A stretch of 62,692 nt of DNA, counting the filler, from Rhabdomonas costata (Eukaryota): the NCBI GenBank assembly GCA_019059605.1. It is 44 parts of 44 records of this genome, joined end to end, with 100 filler letters (N's around TTAATTAATTAA, not from the genome) between each part and the next. Parts side by side here need not be neighbours in the genome. Positions count along the whole stretch, not along the records: positions 54,229 to 55,555 come from JAHMHO010019278.1; positions 55,656 to 56,982 come from JAHMHO010019279.1; 42 more parts are not named here. The stretch is one strand, 5' to 3'. Positions 6,771 through 56,982 of the stretch are shown one piece after another (position 1 is the stretch's first letter; each line of letters opens with the position of its first letter). A model generated the notes under the pieces. It was not told where the DNA came from, made no database searches, and was given only the letters and a program-made list of their open reading frames with translations. The position numbers were made by a program, and so were the translations under genes.

Positions 6771-9700
6771 AGCCGCCACCAGCGCCAGCACTAAAACCAA
6801 AGATGTGTGTTTGTGCGATGCTGTCAGGCACCTGGTCGTGTGGGAGTCCCACAGTTGGGAAACTGTATATATTGCATGCAAGAAGGGTCACCACGAACTC
6901 ACCGCAACCACGCACATATGCAGACACACACACACACATACACGCACGCACACGCTCGCACGCACACACACACAGACACACACACACACACACGAGAATC
7001 CTCACTAGTGCAAAACCACCAACCACACCCAACACNNNNNNNNNNNNNNNNNNNNNNNNNNNNNNNNNNNNNNNNNNNNTTAATTAATTAANNNNNNNNN
7101 NNNNNNNNNNNNNNNNNNNNNNNNNNNNNNNNNNNGTGTTTTGTGCTTGCTGCACCCGTAATTGAAGTTCTGTTTTTCGTCATGGGCCAGAACCGAAGCA
7201 GCCGGGCATTGCCCTATTCTGCTTGGGATTTTCTGCGAGAAGATGTTTCTCTGCCTTCAGGGTTTTGGTCTTGCACCTTTTTGTGTGTGACATCGCGTTT
7301 TGGTATTCGAGGACGCCTTACCCAAGGGGCATTCCTCTGCAGCGACCTTTGACTCCTTTCCCCTTAGAATGTATACCCTGCTGATTTTGCCGGGATGCCA
7401 GGCTGGTCTCTGTTGATGGTTTGGAGGGCTGGCTCGGTGGTTTTGTAAATTGGCGGCCGTCGTCCCACCCAACTCATCTTTTCGTTGTATAGTTTTGCGA
7501 TGAGCAGGGTGGCTTCTGTAATTTGTCTGGACACCCATTGGAAGCGCTGGAAGCACGGCAGCCTTCTGGCTTCCTTTGTTGGGTGGAGTATGATGCCTTG
7601 AATAACTGATGATACGGGCGCCTATTGTACAGTGCGCAGGGGCACAGAGAGCTTGAAGTGAAATGAAGGGGAACGACAGGGCTCCACTTATTTGCCATTA
7701 TTACCACCTGCCACGTCATTGAGAGTGTCAAACTTACCACTTCTGCAAATGCAAAACTTTGTACTTTTTTCAGTAACATGTATATGTTCTCGTTGTGGGA
7801 AGTCCCCCAGCGTTCATAGCATCTTTTTCTTTTGATCAAGCAAGCAGGCCACAGGAGTCATTGCAAACTCTGTGTATATTTTGAGGCAGTGCTTCCAGCC
7901 AATAACCGGAACAGGAATCGGGAAGGGGAAAGAAAGAGAGGGAGGTGGAGAGAGAGGGGGGTAACAAGCTGGTTGAGGGTGTGTATATACTCCGATTCTC
8001 GCCGAATTCTTTTTAGTTGTGACCGGGATTTCTTGGCGCTTGAAACATGGATCCCCGACTGTATTCAGGTGGATTCCCCCACCTCGGACCAAAGCAAGCC
8101 AAACACGCCTTTGCTGGGGGTTAGGTACGCTTCCCGGGACTCCAATAGAAACTGTTGCAGGAATTTTGGTTGGGATGCACGTTTCCGATGCTTTGTTGTA
8201 GGATATCTTGGGCCATTCGCGCTGCAATCGGCCGTCCAAGATTCTGTTTGTTTACGTTTTAGATAGTCCACGCACGCTTCGTCTTCCTCCATATGTACAA
8301 GTGTTTCCTTCTTTCGGCTTTCTCAAAACAAACCCTTTCCTGAGAGGGGACCGATTATGCATTTTTCAAGTGGGTCCTGGTGGCATCTTCATGGATTCCT
8401 TTTTAACGCGGTGCACAGAGTGTACACGCAGCAGGAAAACCCAAAACCAAACACACCCACCACNNNNNNNNNNNNNNNNNNNNNNNNNNNNNNNNNNNNN
8501 NNNNNNNTTAATTAATTAANNNNNNNNNNNNNNNNNNNNNNNNNNNNNNNNNNNNNNNNNNNNGTGTTGGGTGTTTGGGGGTGGTTTTGCCGACTGCCTT
8601 AATTGTGTTTGCAAATACTGCTGAGAAATTCCTATGCAAGTAACATTATAGTGTCATTTTAACTGGTGTAGAATCCACTACTTTGTGCTATAATGTAAGT
8701 GAGTTATGTACAATGTTACTGTTGTTGCATAACTCACACAGTTTCACGTGACATTGGTCTCATTTTCACTCTACGTGCATGTTTGGTGGCCTCTTTATGG
8801 CTTCCAGTTATCAAAAATTAGCACTGAAGTTACCAAAATGGTTCCTATAGGAGGTCGTGACCATAAGCGCAGTATATTATTACAGGTTGTGTGGTTAACA
8901 TGGGTGTTTGTGCGGTTGGTCATAGCTTCACTCGGAAATCCTTAGCCATCATGTCGGCCTCGGACTCGGCTTCACCGCTCATCACGGCTATTTCTATACA
9001 TCACAAAATCAACATTACCACTATTGCCATGTGATTTGGTGAGTGGATGGTGATGTGTAGCGTCGTTATAGCCACTAAAGCAATCTTACCACAAACGTCA
9101 CAACTACCACGGCATCACCACGTCAGCCATAGTGGTTGGCACTTGAGACAGTAGGTTGTGTTTGCCATCCACAATCCATTCATGCAAAACCTCGTCATGG
9201 TCTAACACTTCTACTATGCTCTGATTATATTGTGTGAGTAACAGCAACTACTCCATTTGTTTGAATCACATGGCTTTGTACCATAGTTGTTCTCAATATG
9301 GCATAGAAACCACCCACCCAAGAACAAGAATCTTAAAAGGGATAGAATATCACTACACCTATCCACATTACAATAGCCACTGTTTTTCGTGTTGTTTGAG
9401 TTTTATTGTCCCCTGCGGTATTACTCGAAACCATACTGCAGATCTACTGCTACGGTTAACTGGGTGCGTTAACTGGGTCATTGTTGTTAAAGACCCATTG
9501 TATCCGTCGCTATTGTGACTCACCATTGCATTTTGGTTTCACAATTGCTATCTCGTAGTACACCTACGGCTTACTTGGACATTAACAATGACGATTGAAA
9601 CCAACGTCAAACACACACACACACGAGAAATTGCACAAAAAAACTGCACACATTAAGACCATCCGATTCAAGAATGTCAATTTGGCACAACGTTAACTCA

Positions 9701-39957: not shown

Positions 39958-40152
39958 TACTGGGACCGGGCCCTGAAGTACTGAGCGAAGACGGACGACG
40001 GACTGCTCCATAGCGCCCTGGCGAACGAGATCTCCCCGTCCTGCTTCGTGATATTCCCTCTGGAGGTGATCCAAGAGACAAGTACAAGTGCTGCCTCCCA
40101 CGCGAGAACTACCGGGTCGGGCCTGAACAGCATGTGGCCCTGCGGCTTCAAG
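39958..40152 (+). pseudogene. Decayed GIY-YIG-like endonuclease fragment (possible Penelope-like element)
   Basis: LLHSALANEISPSCFVIFPLEVI, a frameshifted RENY.V and LNSMWPCGF resemble the GIY-YIG C-terminal half LH.A.....F...PLE....RE..W...LNS..P.G.N. There is an in-frame TGA at 39982. Confidence 0.5.
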
Positions 40153-40499
40153 CCGCCGTTCCGGGGCAGCCCGTCGCAGCCTGGGTGCCGAGGAAGTACC
40201 GCGTGCCAGAGCCAAACAGAGGAGAGCTAATCGACGTGGCCCTGGACCAGGTGGGACGCCAGGTCTCCACCTGGTTGAAGCAGCTCGAGACGCTCGGAGC
40301 GGACACTTTGAAGAGCCTGGGACAAGGTCAAGATCCGGGACCGGTTAAACGACGCCGCTGTGGCAAACCTGCTGAAAATCCTAACCCAAGCCCCAGGCCG
40401 CAGACGCGTAGGACTCGTTCAGCAGGGCACGCAGGTCCCAGCCCCCAACAGCCATGCGGGCAGGCTTGGGCCGCAGGCCACGCAGTCCTCCCAGTTAAG

Positions 40500-40895
40500 C
40501 TATGGCGCACGCACACTACCCTAGAAAAGCTCGTGCTCCCCAAGTCTACCACTGCGCTTTTCTTCACCAAACTGGAAATATCAAACTGTTTTTGGTCCAT
40601 TAAGGTTCCCTCTGCAGTGTGTGGCTCATTTGCATTTCAGTCCCCTGTCGGAAATCTCTCAACACGCCGCCTCCCGTTCGGTTGGTCATGGAGTCCACTT
40701 CTTGTGCACTCCACACAATTCACCCTTTCACCCCTTCACCTGCTCTTCCTCCTTTTTGGCAATACATTGACGCCAATTTGCTCGCGCACCCTGATCCACG
40801 TTCTCACATTCCACAAGCATTTTGCTGTCTTTCTGCTGGAGCAAGACGGGTTCTTACTGAACCAGAAGTGCAGTACCATTCCTGCAACTTCCATC
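40500..40895 (+). mobile_element. Degenerate reverse transcriptase of a DIRS/tyrosine-recombinase-type retrotransposon
   Basis: FFTKLEISNCFWSI...LPFGWSWSP, then after a frameshift WQYIDA (YxDD broken), then LLEQDGFLLNQKC. Confidence 0.8.
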
Positions 40896-41392
40896 AGTGA
40901 AAGACCCACATGCAAACGGCAAACAACAGAGTACTGTGTTCGTGCTGGTGCTGGTCGTCGAGTTCCTGAGCGTCAAGCCCGATGCGCTCGCGCCTGCTTA
41001 CATGGGTGTGGATTCGCTCTACCCGCCCTCCCCGAGCCTTCCCGCAAGAGACGTCACCAGGATGAGTGGACCTGGGATTCCTGGAGAGCTTGCAGCCCTC
41101 CTTCGCTGGCCGCCAGCGACGGAAGCCCGCTCTCCGCAAAGCTGTCAAGCTGTGAAGCTGTGTGAGTCCGACGCTCCCTATGTCAACGTCAACTTTAAGG
41201 ACAAGCAGAAGTTTTGGGATATGACTGGCATGATCTACAGCCAATTCGCAACCGGCAGATGGTTCGTCCCCAAGACCGTGAACAANNNNNNNNNNNNNNN
41301 NNNNNNNNNNNNNNNNNNNNNNNNNNNNNTTAATTAATTAANNNNNNNNNNNNNNNNNNNNNNNNNNNNNNNNNNNNNNNNNNNNTTTTGGT

Positions 41393-44550: not shown

Positions 44551-45883
44551 CTGTGCGTGCGCACGCGCCAGGAGGTTGTGGTGAGCTCAGAGCGCAGCTG
44601 CTTTCTTCCTTTCGGACTTCAGGCTAGATCAGTTCAAATTGGCAGGCTGACAACTTTTTCATGAACAAAAGTTGTCACCCGTTAACTCAGAAACACGTTA
44701 ACCCGTTAACTCAGAAGTACGCTGTCTTATTTTTCTGCGCAACAATAGCAAAATCTACCCTTGCGACCAGCACGACCAACCGGCCAAAATATCCTGGCAT
44801 GCGGTGGGTTGCGCCATACAATATGACTGAATGCTAAGAAAGTCTACTTTGGAAGCAAAATGAAGGTCTTTATTCACTTACGGAGTGCATTACTCGACCT
44901 TACCATCGCTGCGCAGAAAACCGACTCCAGGTTGAAATGCGACACGTACGTTTTTGGTTTCGGAGTGTAACCATCCTTAATTCGAGTTTCCCATTTTTCA
45001 ACGAAATCTGGGCAAAGCATCGATTTTACGAAAGTCTTGCGCACACTTTTACAATGACAATCGCCTAACAGCACAGTTCAGCACGTTTAATATACCAAAT
45101 ACTTGCACTGTGCCCAGGCACTGCTAAACCAATCGCATTGCACTGGAAACAGGCGTTCCGCCAGGCGTATCGCCATCCCACGGAGTCGTTCGATCCAACG
45201 GCACCTCTCGCGAGCACGGGCCAATAGCGCGTGCTCGGCACAATTGTCGCCACAGTCAATCAGGCAACAGCCAGCGCACTACGCGCCCCGAAGCAGGGCA
45301 GCGAACGCTCCAAAGGAACCGTATCCAGTTCCCGTGGCTAACAGCAGTATGCAGGTCGGTCGAGAGCAGTCACCAACAGCACCAGTCATGCAAGAAACAG
45401 CGCGGGGTTCAGCCGACACACGCACAACACACACTAGTCGAAGCTGGGAGCATCCGTACCGAGCCCTAGAAGAATCGAGCCTCGGAGGAACACGCCCCCT
45501 CATGATCACGCCTCTTAGGCCATATCGCTATTCAGTATGTCCAATGGCACCCCCTACACCCAAACCNNNNNNNNNNNNNNNNNNNNNNNNNNNNNNNNNN
45601 NNNNNNNNNNTTAATTAATTAANNNNNNNNNNNNNNNNNNNNNNNNNNNNNNNNNNNNNNNNNNNNAGAGCCTCAGTAACGAAGCGAGGTTGCGTCCTAC
45701 ACCATTGCATTGTCACACGGCAGGCGTGTTTTGATGAATGTGAAGGACCGGGGACAGGACTGATTGCACTTGTGCCCTTTCAGGTCAGGTTTCTGAATAA
45801 CACTCCCTGTGTTTGAAGTATATCCTCGCAAGCAACACATCTTCGGAGATCAGCAGAATGCTTCTTTTTCTTCGTAATCTCAG

Positions 45884-46993
45884 GGCGACAGCTGGCGCTG
45901 AAGATCAGTGCAAACTCAGTGTACGGCTTCACTGGGGCCACTGTAGGAAAACTTCCATGCCTTGAGATCTCGTCCTCCGTGACGGGCTTTGGGCGGCAGA
46001 TGATCAACCGGACAAAGGAGCTGGTGTCCACGCCCTGCCTGCCTGATTTCCTCTTTTCCCGTCCATCGATTTTTCGCACGTTTCTTTCGGGTTCCTTCGC
46101 GGTTCGTCAGCTAGGAATGAGCTGTGAGGGGCAACGAACTCAAGAATACAAGTGACTGGCATTTCTTTGCTTTCCTCCTCCAGGTACTGAGCTCAATGTG
46201 TAATATACTAATGCACACTGTCCTTCGTTGTCCACGTCGCCTTTGCTTTTGCTTTTGATGCGTTCTTGCAGAGTCGTGTGTTCTTAATATTACCCATCCC
46301 AAACAAGTGCTTAGATTTCAATTTAACCCGACATAGCGTGCGGGCTCTTATGTGACGATGACCACCCGCTGGGCTTCTGCGCCTGTTGCGCTTTTTGTTC
46401 TTCCTTCTCAATCCATTTGCGATTTTGTGACCAGGTGGAGTCGATTTACTGCCAGAAGAACGGCCATCCTCACGATGCAGTGGTAATTTACGGGGACACG
46501 GACTCTGTCATGGTCAAGTTCGGATATCCTGACTTGGCATGCAGCACGCAGCAAGCAGCACACACAAAGAGAGACACGTGAAGAGCTATGTAGCCACTGA
46601 CGAAGCCGACAGCTCCATATCAGTCTATGTGCCGTGCCCATACACACCTGACCCTATTGGCACATCACCTCCACTGTGGAGAGGAGGATGCAGTATTCAC
46701 CAGTCGTCATATTGAGTAAAATACTCAATATGAATTCGCTCTAATTCTTAGCAATCAATCTTAATTCTTAGCAATCATCCGGTATGGGTTTGTGTTTTGG
46801 GCCACTGCTGATGCATGGACTTGGAATATTTTCCTGAAACAGAGTCGCTGGATATTGGGTTGCACAGAATATAGAGTTTAAAGTACAGGGTTAAATGAAC
46901 TCTGCGAAATGCGGCATGATGTGCCCCCACCCTACGGTTCGTTGTTGTTTTCATTCTGCATGCAGGAAACCTCAATGAAGATGGGCAAGGCCG
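45884..46993 (+). CDS. POLD1: DNA polymerase delta catalytic subunit, 3 exons
   Basis: Exons 45884-46023 ([40 protein letters not shown]), 46435-46536 ([22 protein letters not shown]) and 46966-46993. The second intron is GC-AG. Confidence 0.95.
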
Positions 46994-47589
46994 NNNNNNN
47001 NNNNNNNNNNNNNNNNNNNNNNNNNNNNNNNNNNNNNTTAATTAATTAANNNNNNNNNNNNNNNNNNNNNNNNNNNNNNNNNNNNNNNNNNNNGTGTTGG
47101 GTGTGTGTGGTGGGGTTGGGGGGGGAAAAGAAATGGCAAGAGATGTAAGATGCCCAAATTTAGCTTTTCATGTTGCTATGAAGCGAGATTAATATTCAGC
47201 CGTGAAGGTTGAGACACCTGGTACATGCCCAAAGAAGATGAGGATTAGAGCAGTAGATGAAAGTTAGCGTTCAGGTCACAGCTTTTTTGTTGGGAGGAAG
47301 GATTCACTGAATGAGACATGGAAGCGAAACGGTTCTACAGTGGCCGCGCACCAAACGCGGCGCACTAACCTCAAACGCACCGTCGCATTCCCGCCACCAT
47401 GATAGCTTCACCATTACGAGGCTGTGAAGACATAAGGCGCACGAAACTTTCTCGCTGTTCACCATATACAGAAACATTTGCTGTCGTTCCTTTTCCATTT
47501 GCTGGCACCTGTTGGTAATCATGGGTCCAGACTGGTTTCCTCCTCCTCTCACAAGGACACGTATGAGAGCTTTATGCACCCACGCACAC

Positions 47590-47862: not shown

Positions 47863-50505
47863 CCAGCAAAAAGGCGGAACACCGAGGGAACGCAAACAAC
47901 ACAAGAACAACCGGGGCCCGCCAGCGCAAAGAGAGAAAAAGAAAGAGGGAAAAAATGCCAGGTGCAGCTGTTTGCAAGTCGAAAAAAGTACTCTTGGAGC
48001 TCTTCGCAAAACGAATCTGCCAGGTCATATATAGCTCAGATACCACGGAAAGGGCTGCGGCAGAGACGCTTCTATATCGCTTTAGAGGCTATGAATGGGA
48101 CAATAAGGAAAACGATTGCAACCCCCAAAGATATCGCCAAATATTCCTTTCCCCCAAAACCCAGAACTTAATGCCTCGAGACCACGCATCCGACACTTTT
48201 GGTCTTCTGTACAGGTTGATGGGAAACGCTGTGACGTAAGGAACCCGCATCGGAGTTACCGTGAATCCGTGTGCACCACCTACTTACCAAAGACAGGGCG
48301 GAGGTCTCAACGCTAACCGCTAACCAGCACCCTTTTTTTTACTGTTTCAGGAAGCAAAGGAGCACAGACTTTTGGTACACGTGGCAGCGAAAAAATGATT
48401 ACAATCAGTACAACAAAAAANNNNNNNNNNNNNNNNNNNNNNNNNNNNNNNNNNNNNNNNNNNNTTAATTAATTAANNNNNNNNNNNNNNNNNNNNNNNN
48501 NNNNNNNNNNNNNNNNNNNNGTGGTGGGTTTCGCCTGCAGGAGCACACCTTTCAGGAGGGAGGAAGGGAGGGAGGAGGTAGGGAGGGGGGTGCCGAGGCC
48601 TTGTACAGCTTTGGTGCTTTGATGGTGCGCGCTTCTGTTGTTGCCCGTGTCTAAGCCAAATTTGAACAAGCAGCTCCCGGTGACCCTTCTCGTCCGCGGC
48701 TGCTGCTTGGCTTTCTCCTGCTGACTTGTACTGCTGCTCCTTTTGCTGATGTTGGTGAGCTTTGGATACTCTGCATTCACATGGGACGGGACGAAATGCA
48801 AAAAAAAGGTGCAGAGGGGTGGTGCGGAAGTCCCTTTCTTAAAACACCATTTTGTTTCAAATTACATGTAATCTGGCGTGTCTGTTTTTGAACTGGGACA
48901 GTTTTAAATCATCGTACACTGGTCTCTTCTGAGAGCGTTTCTTCTTTCTCAAAGTCTTCCAGATGGAGTCAGACAGACCGTGTTAGGCGGCAGCGGTTTC
49001 CTTCGTGAACAATAACTCCAAACCGCGAGAATAATTGATGCAGCATTTTCCTGCCTCTTTTGCAGCTTAAACACTGTTGTTTGTTTGTTTTGCATTTATG
49101 GAAATCGCATGAACTCCGCTACTTCGCCGCATAAAGGTGTGTGTGTGTGTGTCCAATGCCAACACCCATGCACAGCGCGTTTTACCTGTGTACGCATGGG
49201 CCCCTCTCTCTTTCTCTCGGTTGTTCACCGCCTCGGCGCCTTGTTCTTATTTCGCTACCAATTGTACGGTGTTGTTAAGTTGGTGAGACGTTCCTGTTGT
49301 TTGCATTAACTCATGCCTCTTGGCGGCATACAAGTGGGAGCTAGGAGATTGCAGCTTTTCCCCGTTCAGTTCAAGTTCATTGTTCAGCTTGGTGATAAGC
49401 GATTAAGGTTTCCAAACAGGTGTAGTGTGTGGGTGTGAGTTCAACCTGATCAGGCCTGACAGTATAGAGCGTGGTCTGAATGCCGCGTGCTGTTGCCTGT
49501 GGATCTGATGCTCAGCCTGAAAATTGCGAAACCCGATAATTGGCTTTCTTCTTCGCCAGCTTCCTTTATGATTGCTTGGCAACTAAAACTGACTTTGCAG
49601 GTCTTGTGCACATTACCTATTTGCAGGTTCACAACCCGACCGGTGCAATCCCAAAGGGCTTCATGATGGAAAGGAGGTGCGAGGCCGGGGCCCAGTCTCC
49701 TGGAGTCACGGCAAGTCTGCCCGCGTCTCTGTGATTTCCTCCTCCTCTTCCTGCTCGGTGTCGCCAGATCCCACTGTTGGGACTTCAAGAAGGCACCATG
49801 CTGCGGACGAATCACTCCCACTTTCTCGCGGTAAACACCACCCCCACNNNNNNNNNNNNNNNNNNNNNNNNNNNNNNNNNNNNNNNNNNNNTTAATTAAT
49901 TAANNNNNNNNNNNNNNNNNNNNNNNNNNNNNNNNNNNNNNNNNNNNTTGTGGTGTTTGCTGCAAGAACGATAATGGGACAATGCCCTTCTCATAGCCCA
50001 AGAGTTTGACAGCACCCAACCTCCTCTCCTCTAACCTTTAGAGGACACCCCCATTGCCCAGTGCTGTCCTTGTTAATTTTACCGTTTCTTCGTTTCTGTG
50101 TTTTACCCCTGCAGGTCCCAGCTGCTCTCTTCTTCATTTTCGATCGGCGTTCGTGCGTCCCTTCCCGCAAGTCGAATCACCTCTTCTTCTTCTGCGTGCT
50201 AGAATCCCCTCTCCCGGTTCACCACCTTCCTTGTTGCATTGTACGTAATTCAGCTCCTTTGGCTATTGATAGTTATCCATATCCAGGCCTGGATTGATTG
50301 GTCGACACAATTTGGGAACACGGGCGTGAAAGCCTATTTACCCTGAGTTAAGCAACATTTTGCTGCAGTTTGCAGCTAGAATGCTGTTGCGAGGTTCCGT
50401 ATCCTTCACAGCACTATTCAAAACAACCCCCAACAACGTCCATACCTCCCCCCAGCACTTGCCGGTTTCCCAACTCTTTCTGTGTTGTTCCACTCGCGCC
50501 CTGCA

Positions 50506-51274
50506 ATGCGCACCCTTCCGCTTTGGATATGCTTCGCCGTCGCCGTGCTGGCCTTCACCGGGGCCTTTACGGGGAGCCTGTGGAGCACCCTGAACCAGGC
50601 CGCGGTGTCCTCAGTGGACGAGCTTTCTGGGGTTTTCCGAACTGCTGTGATGCGGGACCTGGAGCACCGGCTGCTGAGCGTGCTGGACGGGATGCTGTTG
50701 ATGCTGAAGGACTGGCGTGCGTTTCCTGGGGTGGAGAACAGCACGGTGGACGATGTGTACCTGTTTACGTACCACGTGATGCGCGACACGCCTGCAGTTG
50801 CGGGAATGTTCTTCAGTCGTCCGGACGGCGAGGCGATGGGCTCGACTGCGTTGCCATCAGGAGGCATCGGTGTGGGCAGCCGGCCCGCTGCTGCATTGGG
50901 CGTTCGTCTTAACATGACTTCTTACAAATACAACGGGACCATGGGAAGTGCGTACCTCACCACCACAGGTTATGACGCCAGAGTGCGACCGTGGTACGTT
51001 TCAGCGGTGGAGGCAGGTCGCCCCGTGTTTACGTATCTGTACAACTCCGCCGTCACGACAATTGAAATGATCGCCCTGTCTACGGCGGTGTACAACTCCA
51101 GTAATGGTGTGGCTGCGGTGTTAGGCCTTGCGTGTCCATTTGCGCTGCTCACCAGTGAGCTTTCCGCGGCGCACCGGGACTTGCGAAGCTCCGGGATAAT
51201 GCTTCTTGTTGAGCAGCAGAGCGGAATGGCGATCGCAGCGACCTCAGCTAACCCTTCCTCCCTAAATGCGGACG
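50506..51274 (+). CDS. Membrane receptor with an N-terminal TM helix and a dCache_1 sensor domain (partial)
   Basis: TM helix WICFAVAVLAFTGAFTG, then MFFSRPDG, GYDARVRPWYVSAVEAGRPVFTYLY and STAVYNSSNGVAAVLG. Intronless over 256 codons. Confidence 0.88.
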
Positions 51275-55082: not shown

Positions 55083-55796
55083 GTGCGCCCTTGCCACCTC
55101 TCTTCTTTCACCTCCTACCTGAAAAAGGATGTCTGGGGGCGTGCAGACATAAAGAACTACTGTCGCATTTTGCAGCATGTACAAGAGGGGAGTTTGAAAT
55201 TTTTGCCGACCCCCCCCCCCACACACACAAAGCAGGCGCAGACCAGCGGCGCGGTGGCCGAAGCGGGGTGGTGGTGGGGATTGATGCGTACTTGTGTCCG
55301 AACCATTTTTTGTTAGATTTCCATCATAACCATTGCTGCTTGTTGCCAAAAGAGTTTGTTAAGCGTTGCAAAACGTTGCAACCCCCCCCCCACACACACA
55401 CACAAGCGTTCTGTCCATCGGGGTTTCATTGGGTCTCAAAATGTGAGCCTGTCGTGTCTGTCGCCGTTAATGTGGTGCTTGAAGCTCTTGTGCGTTTGTC
55501 AGCAGAGCGCCATGCTGACCATATGCCACCCTCCAGCAAGTTCCTGCTGTTAAATNNNNNNNNNNNNNNNNNNNNNNNNNNNNNNNNNNNNNNNNNNNNT
55601 TAATTAATTAANNNNNNNNNNNNNNNNNNNNNNNNNNNNNNNNNNNNNNNNNNNNTGTGGTGGGTGTGGGTGGGTTTTTGGGTCAAAAAATAAAAATTTT
55701 TAGTATCATCATTAAGATATTAAAAATATATTTTTATACAGTTAGTTCAAATTTTATTTATTTCCATTGATCCAATAAAATTTTTAATAAGTCATT

Positions 55797-55827
55797 AAAT
55801 TTTTATTAAATATTTTAATAAAAATTT
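55797..55827 (-). terminator. Perfect AT-only palindrome (14-bp stem, 3-nt loop) abutting the stop codon; Mimivirus-type 3'-end hairpin candidate
   Basis: AAATTTTTATTAAA-TAT-TTTAATAAAAATTT lies immediately 3' of the TGA at 55830-55828. Confidence 0.6.
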
Positions 55828-56670
55828 TCAACATAAACATCTTGACCACAACATTTTATCATATTGTATTTTTGAACCATTTGATAAATATATCGTAAAA
55901 CCTAAATCATGTATTTTTTTGAATCGTTTTTTTATTTTATTTTTATATATAAAACAATCATCAAAAACACCATCAACATAAATTTTATTACAACATGCTG
56001 TTATTTTACAAGGATATAAACAAGTTGTTTTTTTCTCATGAATATTTTTTATAATTTCTGCACTATTTTTTAGTGAATAAAATGATACAACATGAACTGA
56101 ATTATTTTTTATACAATTGTAGATCAACGAATTACAACAAAAATCACATATGTTATTATGATGATTAAATTTAAAATCAATTTGTGTATAACAATATTTT
56201 ATTTTTACAATACAACGTATTATAAAAGTTGCATATGATCCGTTTTTTGTTATACTTATCCATTTTGGTTTAAATAAATTTTTTAAATATAATTCTATAA
56301 ATAACAATACATTGTTATTTGATTTATTTTTTACTAAATCTTTGTAAAATGTCTGTAATATACTATCTTGAGGAATAATCACATCAATATCATTAGGTAT
56401 TTTTTTCAATATTTTATCTCTCCAAAAACCACCGAAAATTTTAAAGTTATTATCTAGTAATAATGTTTCACAGATTTTCAATTCATTTAATTTATCTCTT
56501 CTTTGTTGTTTTGAAAGTAAATTCATAAACAATGCACTTTTTACAGATACACCAAAAACATACACATAAAATTTTGAATTTGTTTGAGTTAATGTTAAAA
56601 GTGAACGAACATCCAAATATTCAATTATTTCACCGACTAATTCATAAACCAATAAAAGTAAATTAACCAT
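55828..56670 (-). CDS. F-box + class II nucleotidyltransferase-fold protein (giant-virus-like), 280 aa
   Basis: F-box-like LLLLVYELVGEIIEYLDVRSLLTLTQTNSKFY, then IFGGFWRDKILKKIPNDIDV (GG..RD..DxD) and DFCCNSL (cf. DFTINAL). Intronless and very AT-rich. Confidence 0.8.
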   Translation of the reverse strand: MVNLLLLVYELVGEIIEYLDVRSLLTLTQTNSKFYVYVFGVSVKSALFMNLLSKQQRRDKLNELKICETLLLDNNFKIFGGFWRDKILKKIPNDIDVIIPQDSILQTFYKDLVKNKSNNNVLLFIELYLKNLFKPKWISITKNGSYATFIIRCIVKIKYCYTQIDFKFNHHNNICDFCCNSLIYNCIKNNSVHVVSFYSLKNSAEIIKNIHEKKTTCLYPCKITACCNKIYVDGVFDDCFIYKNKIKKRFKKIHDLGFTIYLSNGSKIQYDKMLWSRCLC

Positions 56671-56767
56671 TTAATGTATCAATATATGTAAATTCTTTTT
56701 ATCATTTATTGATGTATATCAATAATTAAATTTAATTATACAAGGAAAAATATCTTATTGTTTATAT

Positions 56768-56982
56768 ATGATTGAATGTGATAAATTTTATGCTTTTAGT
56801 GATATTGAAGGTTCTTTTGTATTTCGTGATATAGATACTAATGATAAAGTACGTGTTCTCGACAGATTATCTAGTATAGAAAAAAAATCTCCACCTAAAA
56901 TATTTAGTAATCATGGATTTGATAAATTATTAGAATTAAGTGATCTATCACATATTGGTGTTGAGTTAAGTTCTGAACTAAA
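56768..56982 (+). CDS. Divergent AT-rich ORF, possible metallophosphoesterase N-terminus (partial)
   Basis: MIECDKFYAFSDIEG resembles the first SD(I/L)(H/E)G motif. The ORF is truncated by the contig end. Confidence 0.5.

What the first reader, a model, noticed from the sequence alone, without database searches (positions are those of the whole stretch)
55656..56982. Giant-virus-like contig inside a protist assembly
Seen: this contig alone is extremely AT-rich (roughly 20% GC by eye, against about 50% elsewhere). It is intronless and gene-dense, with two divergent ORFs 97 nt apart. Known: AT-richness, F-box genes and 3' palindromes characterise Mimiviridae. Inference: a co-amplified infecting virus or a recent endogenous viral element, possibly an undescribed virus-host pair.
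Basis: partly seen in the sequence, partly recalled or inferred. Interest (0 to 1): 0.8.

Follow-up and report, generated by a model that had tools for sequence, protein, structure and literature searches.

The report
AT-rich orphan contig, perhaps giant-viral
A 1.3-kb scrap of 20% GC DNA among ~50% GC eukaryotic contigs carries one complete gene with no known relatives; it looks most like a piece of an unknown AT-rich giant virus, but it is too short and too unlike anything known to prove that.

Summary
The window is 44 size-matched contigs joined by spacers. The contig at 55656-56982 has 20.9% GC, against 42.0-57.5% for the other 43. It holds a complete 280-aa ORF (minus strand) and a divergent partial ORF 97 nt away. 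A perfect 14-bp A/T hairpin abuts the first ORF's stop codon.

The giant-virus reading stays plausible but unproven.
- For it: GC matches the most AT-rich known Mimiviridae. The fragment is 81.5% coding and uses the standard code. There is a 3' hairpin, a sub-threshold F-box match, and protein-language-model neighbours that are Nucleocytoviricota clusters.
- Against it: there are no hallmark genes. No sequence-level relative turned up in IMG/VR. There is no AAAATTGA promoter motif. The only homologue among 1.84 billion representatives is an unnamed 146-aa metagenome protein.

ORF1 also carries the class II nucleotidyltransferase head motifs (GG-x2-RD-x9-DxD, then DFxxNSL 96 residues on), below family cut-offs.

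The first 28 nt are an amplification-primer remnant, not biology. No host junction is present, so an endogenous element has no support. The whole assembly, sequencing reads and earlier findings were unavailable, so binning could not be done. Interest is modest.

The parts
55656..55683 (.). 28-nt G/T-only run: a remnant of a degenerate whole-genome-amplification primer, not part of the biological insert
   Evidence: 27 of 44 contigs start with a G/T-only run of 8 nt or more, and 26 of 44 end with an A/C-only run of 8 nt or more. This stretch is 58.6% GC against 20.1% for the rest. The link to primer chemistry is inference.
55685..55827 (-). 3' non-coding region downstream of ORF1, 10.5% GC, cut off by the amplicon end
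   Evidence: GC. As RNA the 151 nt fold with z = -2.21; 4 of 200 shuffles fold as well.
55797..55827 (-). Perfect 14-bp A/T hairpin with a 3-nt loop, directly abutting the ORF1 stop codon; candidate transcript 3'-end signal
   Evidence: a stem of 14 bp or more in 5 of 2000 dinucleotide shuffles. It is seen in the fold. The shorter 71-nt fold was not significant (z -0.77).
55828..56670 (-). ORF1 (P0001), 280 aa, ATG to TGA; an orphan protein with an F-box-like N-terminus, a nucleotidyltransferase-head-like core and a Cys-rich C-terminal half (14 Cys)
   Evidence: 0 of 1000 shuffles give a frame this long.
56566..56661 (-). Residues 4-35: F-box-like segment
   Evidence: PF00646 E 0.0061 (16.9 bits, cut-off 20.5) and PF12937 E 0.068. 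Coordinates checked.
56335..56439 (-). Residues 78-112: nucleotidyltransferase head motif A (GG-x2-RD-x9-DID)
   Evidence: PF01743 E 0.018, PF22014 E 0.021; phrog_1614 E 0.018 and phrog_2244 E 0.099; PDB 9kma_A E 0.56, or 0.12 with the profile; Bacillus phage G tRNA nucleotidyltransferase E 0.5; hhalign against E. coli PcnB+Cca E 0.012, probability 3.6%. The motif regex matched in 0 of 200000 shuffles of the protein.
56125..56145 (-). Residues 176-182, DFCCNSL: resembles the RRDFTINS/A motif of class II nucleotidyltransferases
   Evidence: Seen by eye against E. coli PcnB and Cca head domains. The G-to-D spacing is 96 residues in both P0001 and PcnB. D, F, C, N and L are invariant between P0001 and P0003. 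Not reached by any automatic alignment.
55978..56301 (-). Residues 124-231: the only stretch with a detectable homologue (P0003, a 146-aa metagenome protein)
   Evidence: phmmer E 2.4e-12, 41% identity; alignment.
56671..56767 (.). 97-nt divergent intergenic region, 13.4% GC, with three copies of TATTGAT (56678-56684 minus, 56707-56713 plus, 56718-56724 minus); candidate bidirectional promoter
   Evidence: Three copies were reached in 0 of 5000 shuffles, but the motif was chosen after looking. There is no AAAATTGA here, even with one mismatch.
56768..56982 (+). ORF2 (P0002), the first 71 aa of a gene that runs off the contig; no relatives found
   Evidence: GC3 is 5.6%.

Best explanation
The contig is a fragment of an undescribed, extremely AT-rich large DNA virus of eukaryotes. 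The most likely kind is a Mimiviridae-like member of Nucleocytoviricota. It was physically present in the amplified sample: infecting the cell, eaten by it or stuck to it.

Shown: two compact, intron-free, divergently arranged genes that read cleanly in the standard code.

Inferred:
- Transcription starts in the 97-nt, 13% GC spacer, possibly at the repeated TATTGAT element.
- The ORF1 transcript ends at the 14-bp hairpin touching its stop codon, as under the Mimiviridae 'hairpin rule'.
- The ORF1 protein uses an F-box-like N-terminus to dock onto the host SKP1-cullin ubiquitin ligase.
- Its head-only, class-II-like nucleotidyltransferase core and Cys-rich tail bind a target such as an RNA 3' end or a nucleotide, or modify it.

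The only homologue lacks the GG-RD motif and the second catalytic Asp, so a binding role is somewhat more likely than catalysis.
For: Composition and coding:
- GC is 20.1-20.9%, against 42.0-57.5% in the other 43 contigs. That sits at the low edge of known giant viruses: ChoanoV1 22%, Hokoviruses 21%, CroV 23% (passage of PMC6789865).
- The fragment is 81.5% coding with a 97-nt divergent spacer.
- All 3 Trp codons are TGG and all 7 Gln codons are CAA or CAG, which fits the standard code.

Signals and domains:
- A 14-bp hairpin abuts the stop codon (5 of 2000 shuffles). 3' hairpins are listed as a key Mimiviridae feature (passage of PMC6163669).
- There is a sub-threshold F-box match. F-box proteins are reported in mimivirus (passage of PMC8400408).

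Relatives:
- ESM Atlas: the three best clusters score 0.94, 0.94 and 0.93. All are 100% Viruses, commonest Nucleocytoviricota, 265-305 aa long, with Gad2 on 12-29% of members. Gad2 is a predicted nucleotidyltransferase, which agrees with the motif seen independently in ORF1.
- ORF1 is an orphan: 1 hit among 1.84 billion representatives. This is what is expected of giant-virus genes (recalled general knowledge).
- The one completed GTDB genome-contig scan, with the ORF1 profile, found nothing.
Against: No hallmark gene:
- None lies on the contig.
- None of 150 ORFs from the other contigs hit an NCLDV hallmark family at E <= 1e-4.

No sequence-level relative in IMG/VR or searched giant-virus records:
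- IMG/VR gave nothing by seeded tblastn.
- It gave nothing by three back-translated motif scans.
- 0 of the 2 giant-virus records that could be searched matched.

No promoter motif:
- There is no exact AAAATTGA.
- No one-mismatch copy lies in the intergenic region.

Weak domain and structure evidence:
- The Atlas match shares only 153 of 256 features. The tool says this is typical of chance or distant hits, and that shuffled proteins reach 0.9 in 4-10 of 100 cases.
- Pfam Gad2 gave no hit even at E <= 10.
- All F-box and nucleotidyltransferase matches are below the curated cut-offs.
- Structure models were unusable, with pLDDT 36 and 33.

The hairpin is a single case.
Confidence: 0.47

Rival explanations
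1. Nuclear DNA of a second, AT-rich eukaryote (prey, parasite or contaminant) that was amplified together with the main cell.
For: F-box domains are chiefly eukaryotic. The Atlas lists a Rotifera cluster at 0.90 and a Basidiomycota F-box cluster at 0.84. The code is standard. The contig bears the same primer remnant as the others.
Against: A 97-nt divergent spacer and 81.5% coding with no intron are unusually compact for a eukaryotic nucleus (general knowledge). No protein of any sequenced AT-rich eukaryote matched among 1.84 billion representatives. There are no low-complexity Asn or Gln runs.
Confidence: 0.2
2. Part of the host's own AT-rich organelle genome, or of an organellar plasmid, carrying unidentified ORFs.
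For: Organelle DNA is the commonest source of a low-GC outlier in a eukaryotic assembly (general knowledge). It is compact and intron-free, and hairpins at gene ends occur in organelles.
Against: All 3 Trp codons are TGG, and the gene ends at TGA, which is unlike code-4 mitochondria. The whole window holds no tRNA, rRNA or other Rfam family. ORF1 is soluble, Cys-rich and nucleotidyltransferase-like, not a membrane or ribosomal protein. High-copy organelle DNA would be expected to assemble longer than 1.3 kb (inference).
Confidence: 0.1
3. A small satellite of a giant virus (virophage, polinton-like virus or transpoviron) rather than the giant virus itself.
For: Virophages use the same late promoter and hairpin rule as their giant virus (passage of PMC11814242). 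They are AT-rich and full of orphan genes.
Against: No virophage or polinton hallmark was seen on the contig, and there were no IMG/VR relatives. The Atlas neighbours are giant-virus clusters.
Confidence: 0.1
4. DNA of an AT-rich bacterium, such as an endosymbiont.
For: It is compact and intron-free, with a hairpin after the stop codon.
Against: The one completed scan of one genome per GTDB species, with the ORF1 profile, found no relative, though its seeds are only two short peptide patterns. NCBIfam gave nothing meaningful. There is no Shine-Dalgarno-like sequence within 15 nt of either ATG (read). No U-run follows the hairpin. The N-terminus is F-box-like. Bacteria of about 20% GC have reduced, conserved gene sets, not 280-aa orphans (general knowledge).
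Confidence: 0.06
5. An endogenous viral element integrated in the host genome.
For: Giant-virus insertions in eukaryotic genomes are known (abstract of PMC12993054 in the listing).
Against: The whole insert is uniformly AT-rich, with no host-like flank. Both ORFs are intact. There is no blastn or tblastn similarity to the other 43 contigs.
Confidence: 0.05

Closest known systems
AT-rich Mimiviridae recovered from single eukaryotic cells (for example ChoanoV1, 22% GC; PMC6789865)
   Same: Very low GC. Found as a compositional outlier among the contigs of an amplified eukaryotic cell. Compact genes and a hairpin at a gene's 3' end.
   Different: There, 875 kb with hallmark genes was assembled. 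Here there are only 1.3 kb, no hallmark gene, no AAAATTGA motif and no sequence homology to any viral contig searched.
Class II nucleotidyltransferases (PF01743: poly(A) polymerase I and CCA-adding enzymes)
   Same: GG-x2-RD-x9-DxD, then a DFxxN(S/A)L motif 96 residues later, the same spacing as in E. coli PcnB.
   Different: Scores are below the family cut-off (15.8 against 23 bits), and hhalign aligned motif A only. The protein ends about 100 residues after the second motif, so the neck and body domains, and (recalled) the nucleotide-selecting motif, are missing. It has an F-box-like N-terminus and 14 Cys.
Viral F-box proteins (for example in Acanthamoeba polyphaga mimivirus; PMC8400408)
   Same: An N-terminal 32-residue segment matches two F-box models. 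This suggests hijacking of the host SCF ubiquitin ligase.
   Different: The match is sub-threshold. The partner domain here is nucleotidyltransferase-like. SKP1 binding was not tested.
Gad2 (Gabija anti-defence 2, PF26128), a phage protein with a predicted nucleotidyltransferase domain
   Same: Atlas neighbours of ORF1 are giant-virus clusters in which 12-29% of members carry Gad2. Both are nucleotidyltransferase-like.
   Different: Pfam gave no Gad2 match for ORF1, even at E <= 10. Gad2 is about 400 aa and comes from bacteriophages.

Membership tests
Nucleocytoviricota / Mimiviridae | Hallmark genes (major capsid protein, PolB, A32 ATPase, VLTF3) in the same genome | not testable with these tools
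On what is visible there is none on the contig and none among 150 ORFs of the other contigs at E <= 1e-4. The one DNA_pol_B hit there is an exon of cellular polymerase delta.
Nucleocytoviricota / Mimiviridae | AAAATTGA early-promoter motif upstream of genes (PMC6163669) | tested here: not met
   0 exact copies in the insert. All 10 one-mismatch copies lie outside the 97-nt intergenic region. Only two promoters could be examined, and not all mimivirus genes carry the motif (recalled).
Nucleocytoviricota / Mimiviridae | Hairpin-forming motif at the 3' end of genes (PMC6163669) | tested here: met
   Perfect 14-bp stem at 55797-55827, abutting the stop codon; 5 of 2000 shuffles. n = 1 gene.
Nucleocytoviricota / Mimiviridae | Protein homology to known giant-virus proteins | tested here: inconclusive
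   No sequence match in IMG/VR or in the 2 of 5 chosen giant-virus records that were held. The Atlas feature match to three Nucleocytoviricota clusters scores 0.93-0.94 but shares only 139-153 of 256 features.
F-box (PF00646 / PF12937) | HMM score above the gathering cut-off | tested here: not met
   16.9 bits against 20.5 (E 0.0061), and 13.4 against 24.3 (E 0.068). Two related models match the same N-terminal segment, so an F-box-like fold stays plausible.
F-box (PF00646 / PF12937) | Binding to SKP1 | not tested
   No host SKP1 sequence was at hand, so no complex prediction was run.
Class II nucleotidyltransferase head domain (PF01743) | HMM score above the gathering cut-off | tested here: not met
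   15.8 bits against 23 (E 0.018), covering profile positions 3-39 of 126 only. hhalign probability 3.6%.
Class II nucleotidyltransferase head domain (PF01743) | Motif A, GGxVRD-x(8-10)-DxD, with both catalytic Asp | tested here: met
   G80 G81 x2 R84 D85 x9 D95 I D97. 0 of 200000 shuffles of the protein match the regex.
Class II nucleotidyltransferase head domain (PF01743) | RRDFTINA-type motif about 85-96 residues after motif A | tested here: inconclusive
   DFCCNSL at 176-182, 96 residues after G80 as in E. coli PcnB (85 in Cca), and conserved in P0003. The preceding RR is absent and no program aligned it.
Class II nucleotidyltransferase head domain (PF01743) | Neck and body domains, with the nucleotide-selecting motif, following the head | tested here: not met
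   The protein ends at residue 280, and no Pfam match lies beyond residue 115. The motif names are recalled.
Gad2 (PF26128) | HMM match to the family model | tested here: not met
   No PF26128 row at E <= 1 or E <= 10. HMMER filters may hide very weak matches.
Endogenous viral element | Junction between viral and host DNA | tested here: not met
   No GC shift inside the insert. No similarity to the other 43 contigs. Read-level evidence could not be examined.

The most novel reading that the evidence does not exclude
The contig is the first glimpse of a giant virus at or below the lowest GC content known (about 20%), associated with this eukaryotic cell. Its ORF1 founds a new viral effector type: an F-box fused to a stripped-down, head-only class II nucleotidyltransferase. 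Such a protein would tie the host ubiquitin ligase to RNA 3' ends or to nucleotide signalling.
Probability: 0.2. Interest if true: 0.55.

Novelty: new member of a known kind. Interest (0 to 1): 0.3.

Why it matters
If the contig is viral, it flags a virus-cell association in a single amplified eukaryotic cell. Host assignments for uncultured giant viruses are scarce, and this would be a cheap lead: the low-GC bin of the full assembly could hold much more of the genome.

The ORF1 architecture, an F-box-like segment joined to a head-only nucleotidyltransferase, has not been described as far as my three literature searches on these themes show. Those searches were narrow.

As it stands this is one 1.3-kb orphan fragment. 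It supports no ecological or evolutionary conclusion on its own.

Tried and rejected
Homology searches for ORF1:
- k-mer search of 5.8 billion proteins: none. With the two-sequence profile: only P0003 again.
- Exhaustive phmmer over 1.84 billion representatives: 1 hit, P0003. P0003 is a singleton cluster on a 1225-bp contig named 'hypothetical protein'.
- IMG/VR seeded searches and three back-translated motif scans: none.
- Metagenome contigs with the profile and with P0003: none, and not even P0003's own contig.
- GTDB genome contigs: none.
- tblastn against phages: only a marginal E 0.5 hit on the Bacillus phage G tRNA nucleotidyltransferase. Plasmids: none.
- NCBIfam: one meaningless E 0.085 row. 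PADLOC: none.

Homology searches for ORF2: nothing in Pfam, PHROGs, NCBIfam or PADLOC, the longer-protein search, the Atlas or IMG/VR. The GTDB scan for ORF2 got no answer from the machine twice and was dropped.

Structure: AlphaFold2 gave pLDDT 36.2 with one sequence and 33.3 with two. No fold search was run, because such models give meaningless matches.

Giant-virus records: I fetched 18 PolB-bearing IMG/VR loci, using the host polymerase delta exon as bait. I tried to search five of their records with ORF1. Only 2 were held, and neither matched.

Profile comparison with E. coli PcnB+Cca head domains aligned motif A only.

Rfam on the whole window: 0 families.

Binning, coverage and junction reads could therefore not be examined. 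The paper on the hairpin rule (PMC2704430) is not held. That rule is cited through passages of PMC6163669 and PMC11814242.

Rejected reading: the DNA_pol_B hit among the other contigs as a viral PolB. It is a 56-residue exon of cellular polymerase delta, E 4.2e-22 to human POLD1.
Full report
What the window is. The 62,692 bases are not one locus. They are 44 contigs of 1307-1331 bp, joined by N44-TTAATTAATTAA-N44 spacers. The finding covers exactly one of them, 55656-56982.

Of the 44 contigs, 27 begin with a G/T-only run of 8 nt or more and 26 end with an A/C-only run of 8 nt or more. 35 have at least one. I read these as remnants of degenerate whole-genome-amplification primers; that is inference, not shown. 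The target contig begins with such a run, 28 nt at 55656-55683. So its biological insert is about 55685-56982, and it passed through the same kind of amplification as its neighbours.

The neighbours are eukaryotic.
- One holds a 56-residue exon of DNA polymerase delta, flanked by unrelated sequence (E 4.2e-22 to human POLD1).
- Others hit protein kinase (2 ORFs), WWE, PPR, TPR, reverse transcriptase and dCache domains.
- Whether the organism is a protist cannot be told from this.

The observation. It is correct.
- The contig has 20.9% GC (insert 20.1%). The other 43 have 42.0-57.5% (mean 52.1%, SD 3.1%), so it is about 10 SD away.
- ORF1 (55828-56670, minus strand, 280 aa) is far longer than chance allows in such AT-rich DNA: 0 of 1000 shuffles reach it, and the longest shuffled frame is 121 codons.
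- ORF2 (from 56768, plus strand, 71 aa seen) runs off the contig. Its length is not significant, but its GC by codon position (0.44/0.30/0.06) is a coding signature.
- The two ATGs are 97 nt apart, coding density is 81.5%, and the non-coding parts drop to 10.5% and 13.4% GC.
- A perfect 14-bp A/T stem with a 3-nt loop (55797-55827) touches the ORF1 stop codon. A stem that long arises in 5 of 2000 dinucleotide-preserving shuffles of the 143-nt 3' region. The 151-nt region folds with z = -2.2, but a 71-nt sub-window was not significant (z = -0.77).

What ORF1 encodes. Four libraries give weak matches, all below curated cut-offs, to the same two features.
- Residues 4-35 match F-box models: PF00646 E 0.0061, PF12937 E 0.068.
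- Residues about 60-112 match nucleotidyltransferase heads:
  - PF01743 E 0.018 and DUF6932 E 0.021.
  - Two PHROGs annotated nucleotidyltransferase and tRNA nucleotidyltransferase.
  - PDB 9kma_A polynucleotide adenylyltransferase, E 0.56, or 0.12 with a profile.
  - Bacillus phage G tRNA nucleotidyltransferase, E 0.5.

The sequence reads GG-FW-RD-x9-DID, with both catalytic aspartates. That regex occurs in 0 of 200,000 shuffles of the protein.

Ninety-six residues further on lies DFCCNSL. It resembles the RRDFTINS/A motif of E. coli PcnB and Cca, which I fetched for comparison. The spacing equals that of PcnB, and the motif is conserved in the only homologue. No program extended an alignment that far: hhalign aligned motif A only (E 0.012, probability 3.6%).

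The protein stops about 100 residues after this motif. It therefore lacks the neck and body of true CCA-adding or poly(A) enzymes. Its C-terminal half has 14 cysteines. I file it as 'works like an F-box adaptor with a head-only class-II-like nucleotidyltransferase domain', not as a member of either Pfam family.

Relatives.
- An exhaustive phmmer over 1.84 billion cluster representatives gave one hit. This is P0003, a 146-aa 'hypothetical protein' from a 1225-bp metagenome contig, 41% identical over residues 124-231.
- P0003 lacks the GG-RD motif and has Ala in place of the second Asp. This hints that catalysis is not conserved in the family.
- No other ORF1 search found a relative. Those were the k-mer searches, IMG/VR, metagenome contigs, GTDB genome contigs, plasmids, NCBIfam and PADLOC.
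- ORF2 has no relative anywhere I could look.
- Both AlphaFold2 attempts failed, with pLDDT 36 and 33. No fold comparison was possible.

Is it a giant virus? In favour:
- GC at the low edge of known giant viruses: ChoanoV1 22%, Hokoviruses 21%, CroV 23% (passage of PMC6789865).
- Compactness.
- Standard code: 3 of 3 Trp are TGG, and 7 of 7 Gln are CAA or CAG. This speaks against code-4 organelles and mycoplasma-like bacteria, and against ciliates that read TAA/TAG as Gln.
- A 3' hairpin, one of the features a review lists as key for recognising Mimiviridae (passage of PMC6163669).
- An F-box-like segment, a domain reported in mimivirus (passage of PMC8400408).
- The ESM Atlas. Its three best clusters (0.94, 0.94, 0.93) are all viral, commonest Nucleocytoviricota, of similar length (265-305 aa). 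12-29% of their members carry Gad2, and Gad2 is a predicted nucleotidyltransferase (passage of bioRxiv 10.1101/2023.05.01.538930).

Against:
- The other key feature, the AAAATTGA promoter motif, is absent.
- There is no hallmark gene.
- No sequence-level link to any viral contig was found.
- The Atlas match shares only 139-153 of 256 features. The tool says this is what chance or distant hits give.
- Pfam's Gad2 model does not match ORF1.
- The hairpin is one case.

I put the giant-virus reading at a little under one half. The rivals are an AT-rich second eukaryote (0.2), an organelle or organellar plasmid (0.1), a virophage-like satellite (0.1), a bacterium (0.06) and an integrated element (0.05). 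The last has nothing for it here: the insert is uniformly AT-rich and has no similarity to the other 43 contigs.

How it most likely works (inferred, not shown).
- The two genes are transcribed outward from the 97-nt spacer. That spacer holds three copies of TATTGAT, two of them forming a near-palindrome. The motif was picked after looking, so its 0-of-5000 figure overstates the case.
- The ORF1 transcript is ended or processed at the hairpin next to its stop codon.
- The protein would bridge the host SKP1-cullin ligase and a target recognised or modified by its nucleotidyltransferase-like domain.

Limits. They are listed as next steps. Supplementary files of the cited papers were not consulted.

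Verdict. This is a real, compositionally foreign, protein-coding fragment. It is consistent with an undescribed AT-rich giant virus or its satellite, but that is not demonstrated. Finding giant-virus DNA in single-cell eukaryote assemblies is a known kind of result (listing). If confirmed, this would be a new member of a known kind. Interest is modest until the rest of the low-GC bin is seen.

Noticed in passing
window 1-62692: The window is a concatenation of 44 length-sorted contigs (1307-1331 bp) with N44-TTAATTAATTAA-N44 spacers. Neighbouring stretches are therefore not physically linked, and nothing can be inferred from adjacency.
   Followed up: yes
both ends of most contigs, e.g. 8564-8589, 47094-47125, 7008-7035: 35 of 44 contigs carry a G/T-only run at the 5' end and/or an A/C-only run at the 3' end, commonly 10-12 nt and up to 32 nt. 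They are probably untrimmed degenerate amplification primers and primer concatemers, and they could seed false overlaps or spurious ORF starts.
   Followed up: partly
window 45868-46035 (+): A 56-residue exon of cellular DNA polymerase delta (E 4.2e-22 to human POLD1 residues 683-738), flanked by unrelated sequence. This shows the ~50% GC contigs come from an intron-bearing eukaryote. It is not a viral PolB.
   Followed up: yes
window 40014-41165 (+): A 383-aa open frame with a weak reverse-transcriptase match (RVT_1, E 3.8e-4, below the cut-off). Probably a retroelement fragment of the host.
   Followed up: no
window 50380-51273 (+): An open frame with a dCache_1 / MCP-like sensor domain (E 1.5e-7, below the Pfam cut-off) on a 55.5% GC contig. 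The domain is commoner in bacteria, so this contig could be bacterial rather than eukaryotic.
   Followed up: no
window 56678-56724: Three copies of TATTGAT sit within the 97-nt divergent spacer. Two of them form the near-palindrome TTATTGATGTATATCAATAA. ORF1's start lies in TAAATG. Both are candidate promoter elements, but they were chosen after looking.
   Followed up: partly
P0003 (metagenome protein, 146 aa): The only homologue of ORF1 covers just the middle and C-terminal part. It lacks the F-box-like segment and the GG-RD motif and has DxA instead of DxD. The family may therefore include non-catalytic or truncated forms.
   Followed up: partly
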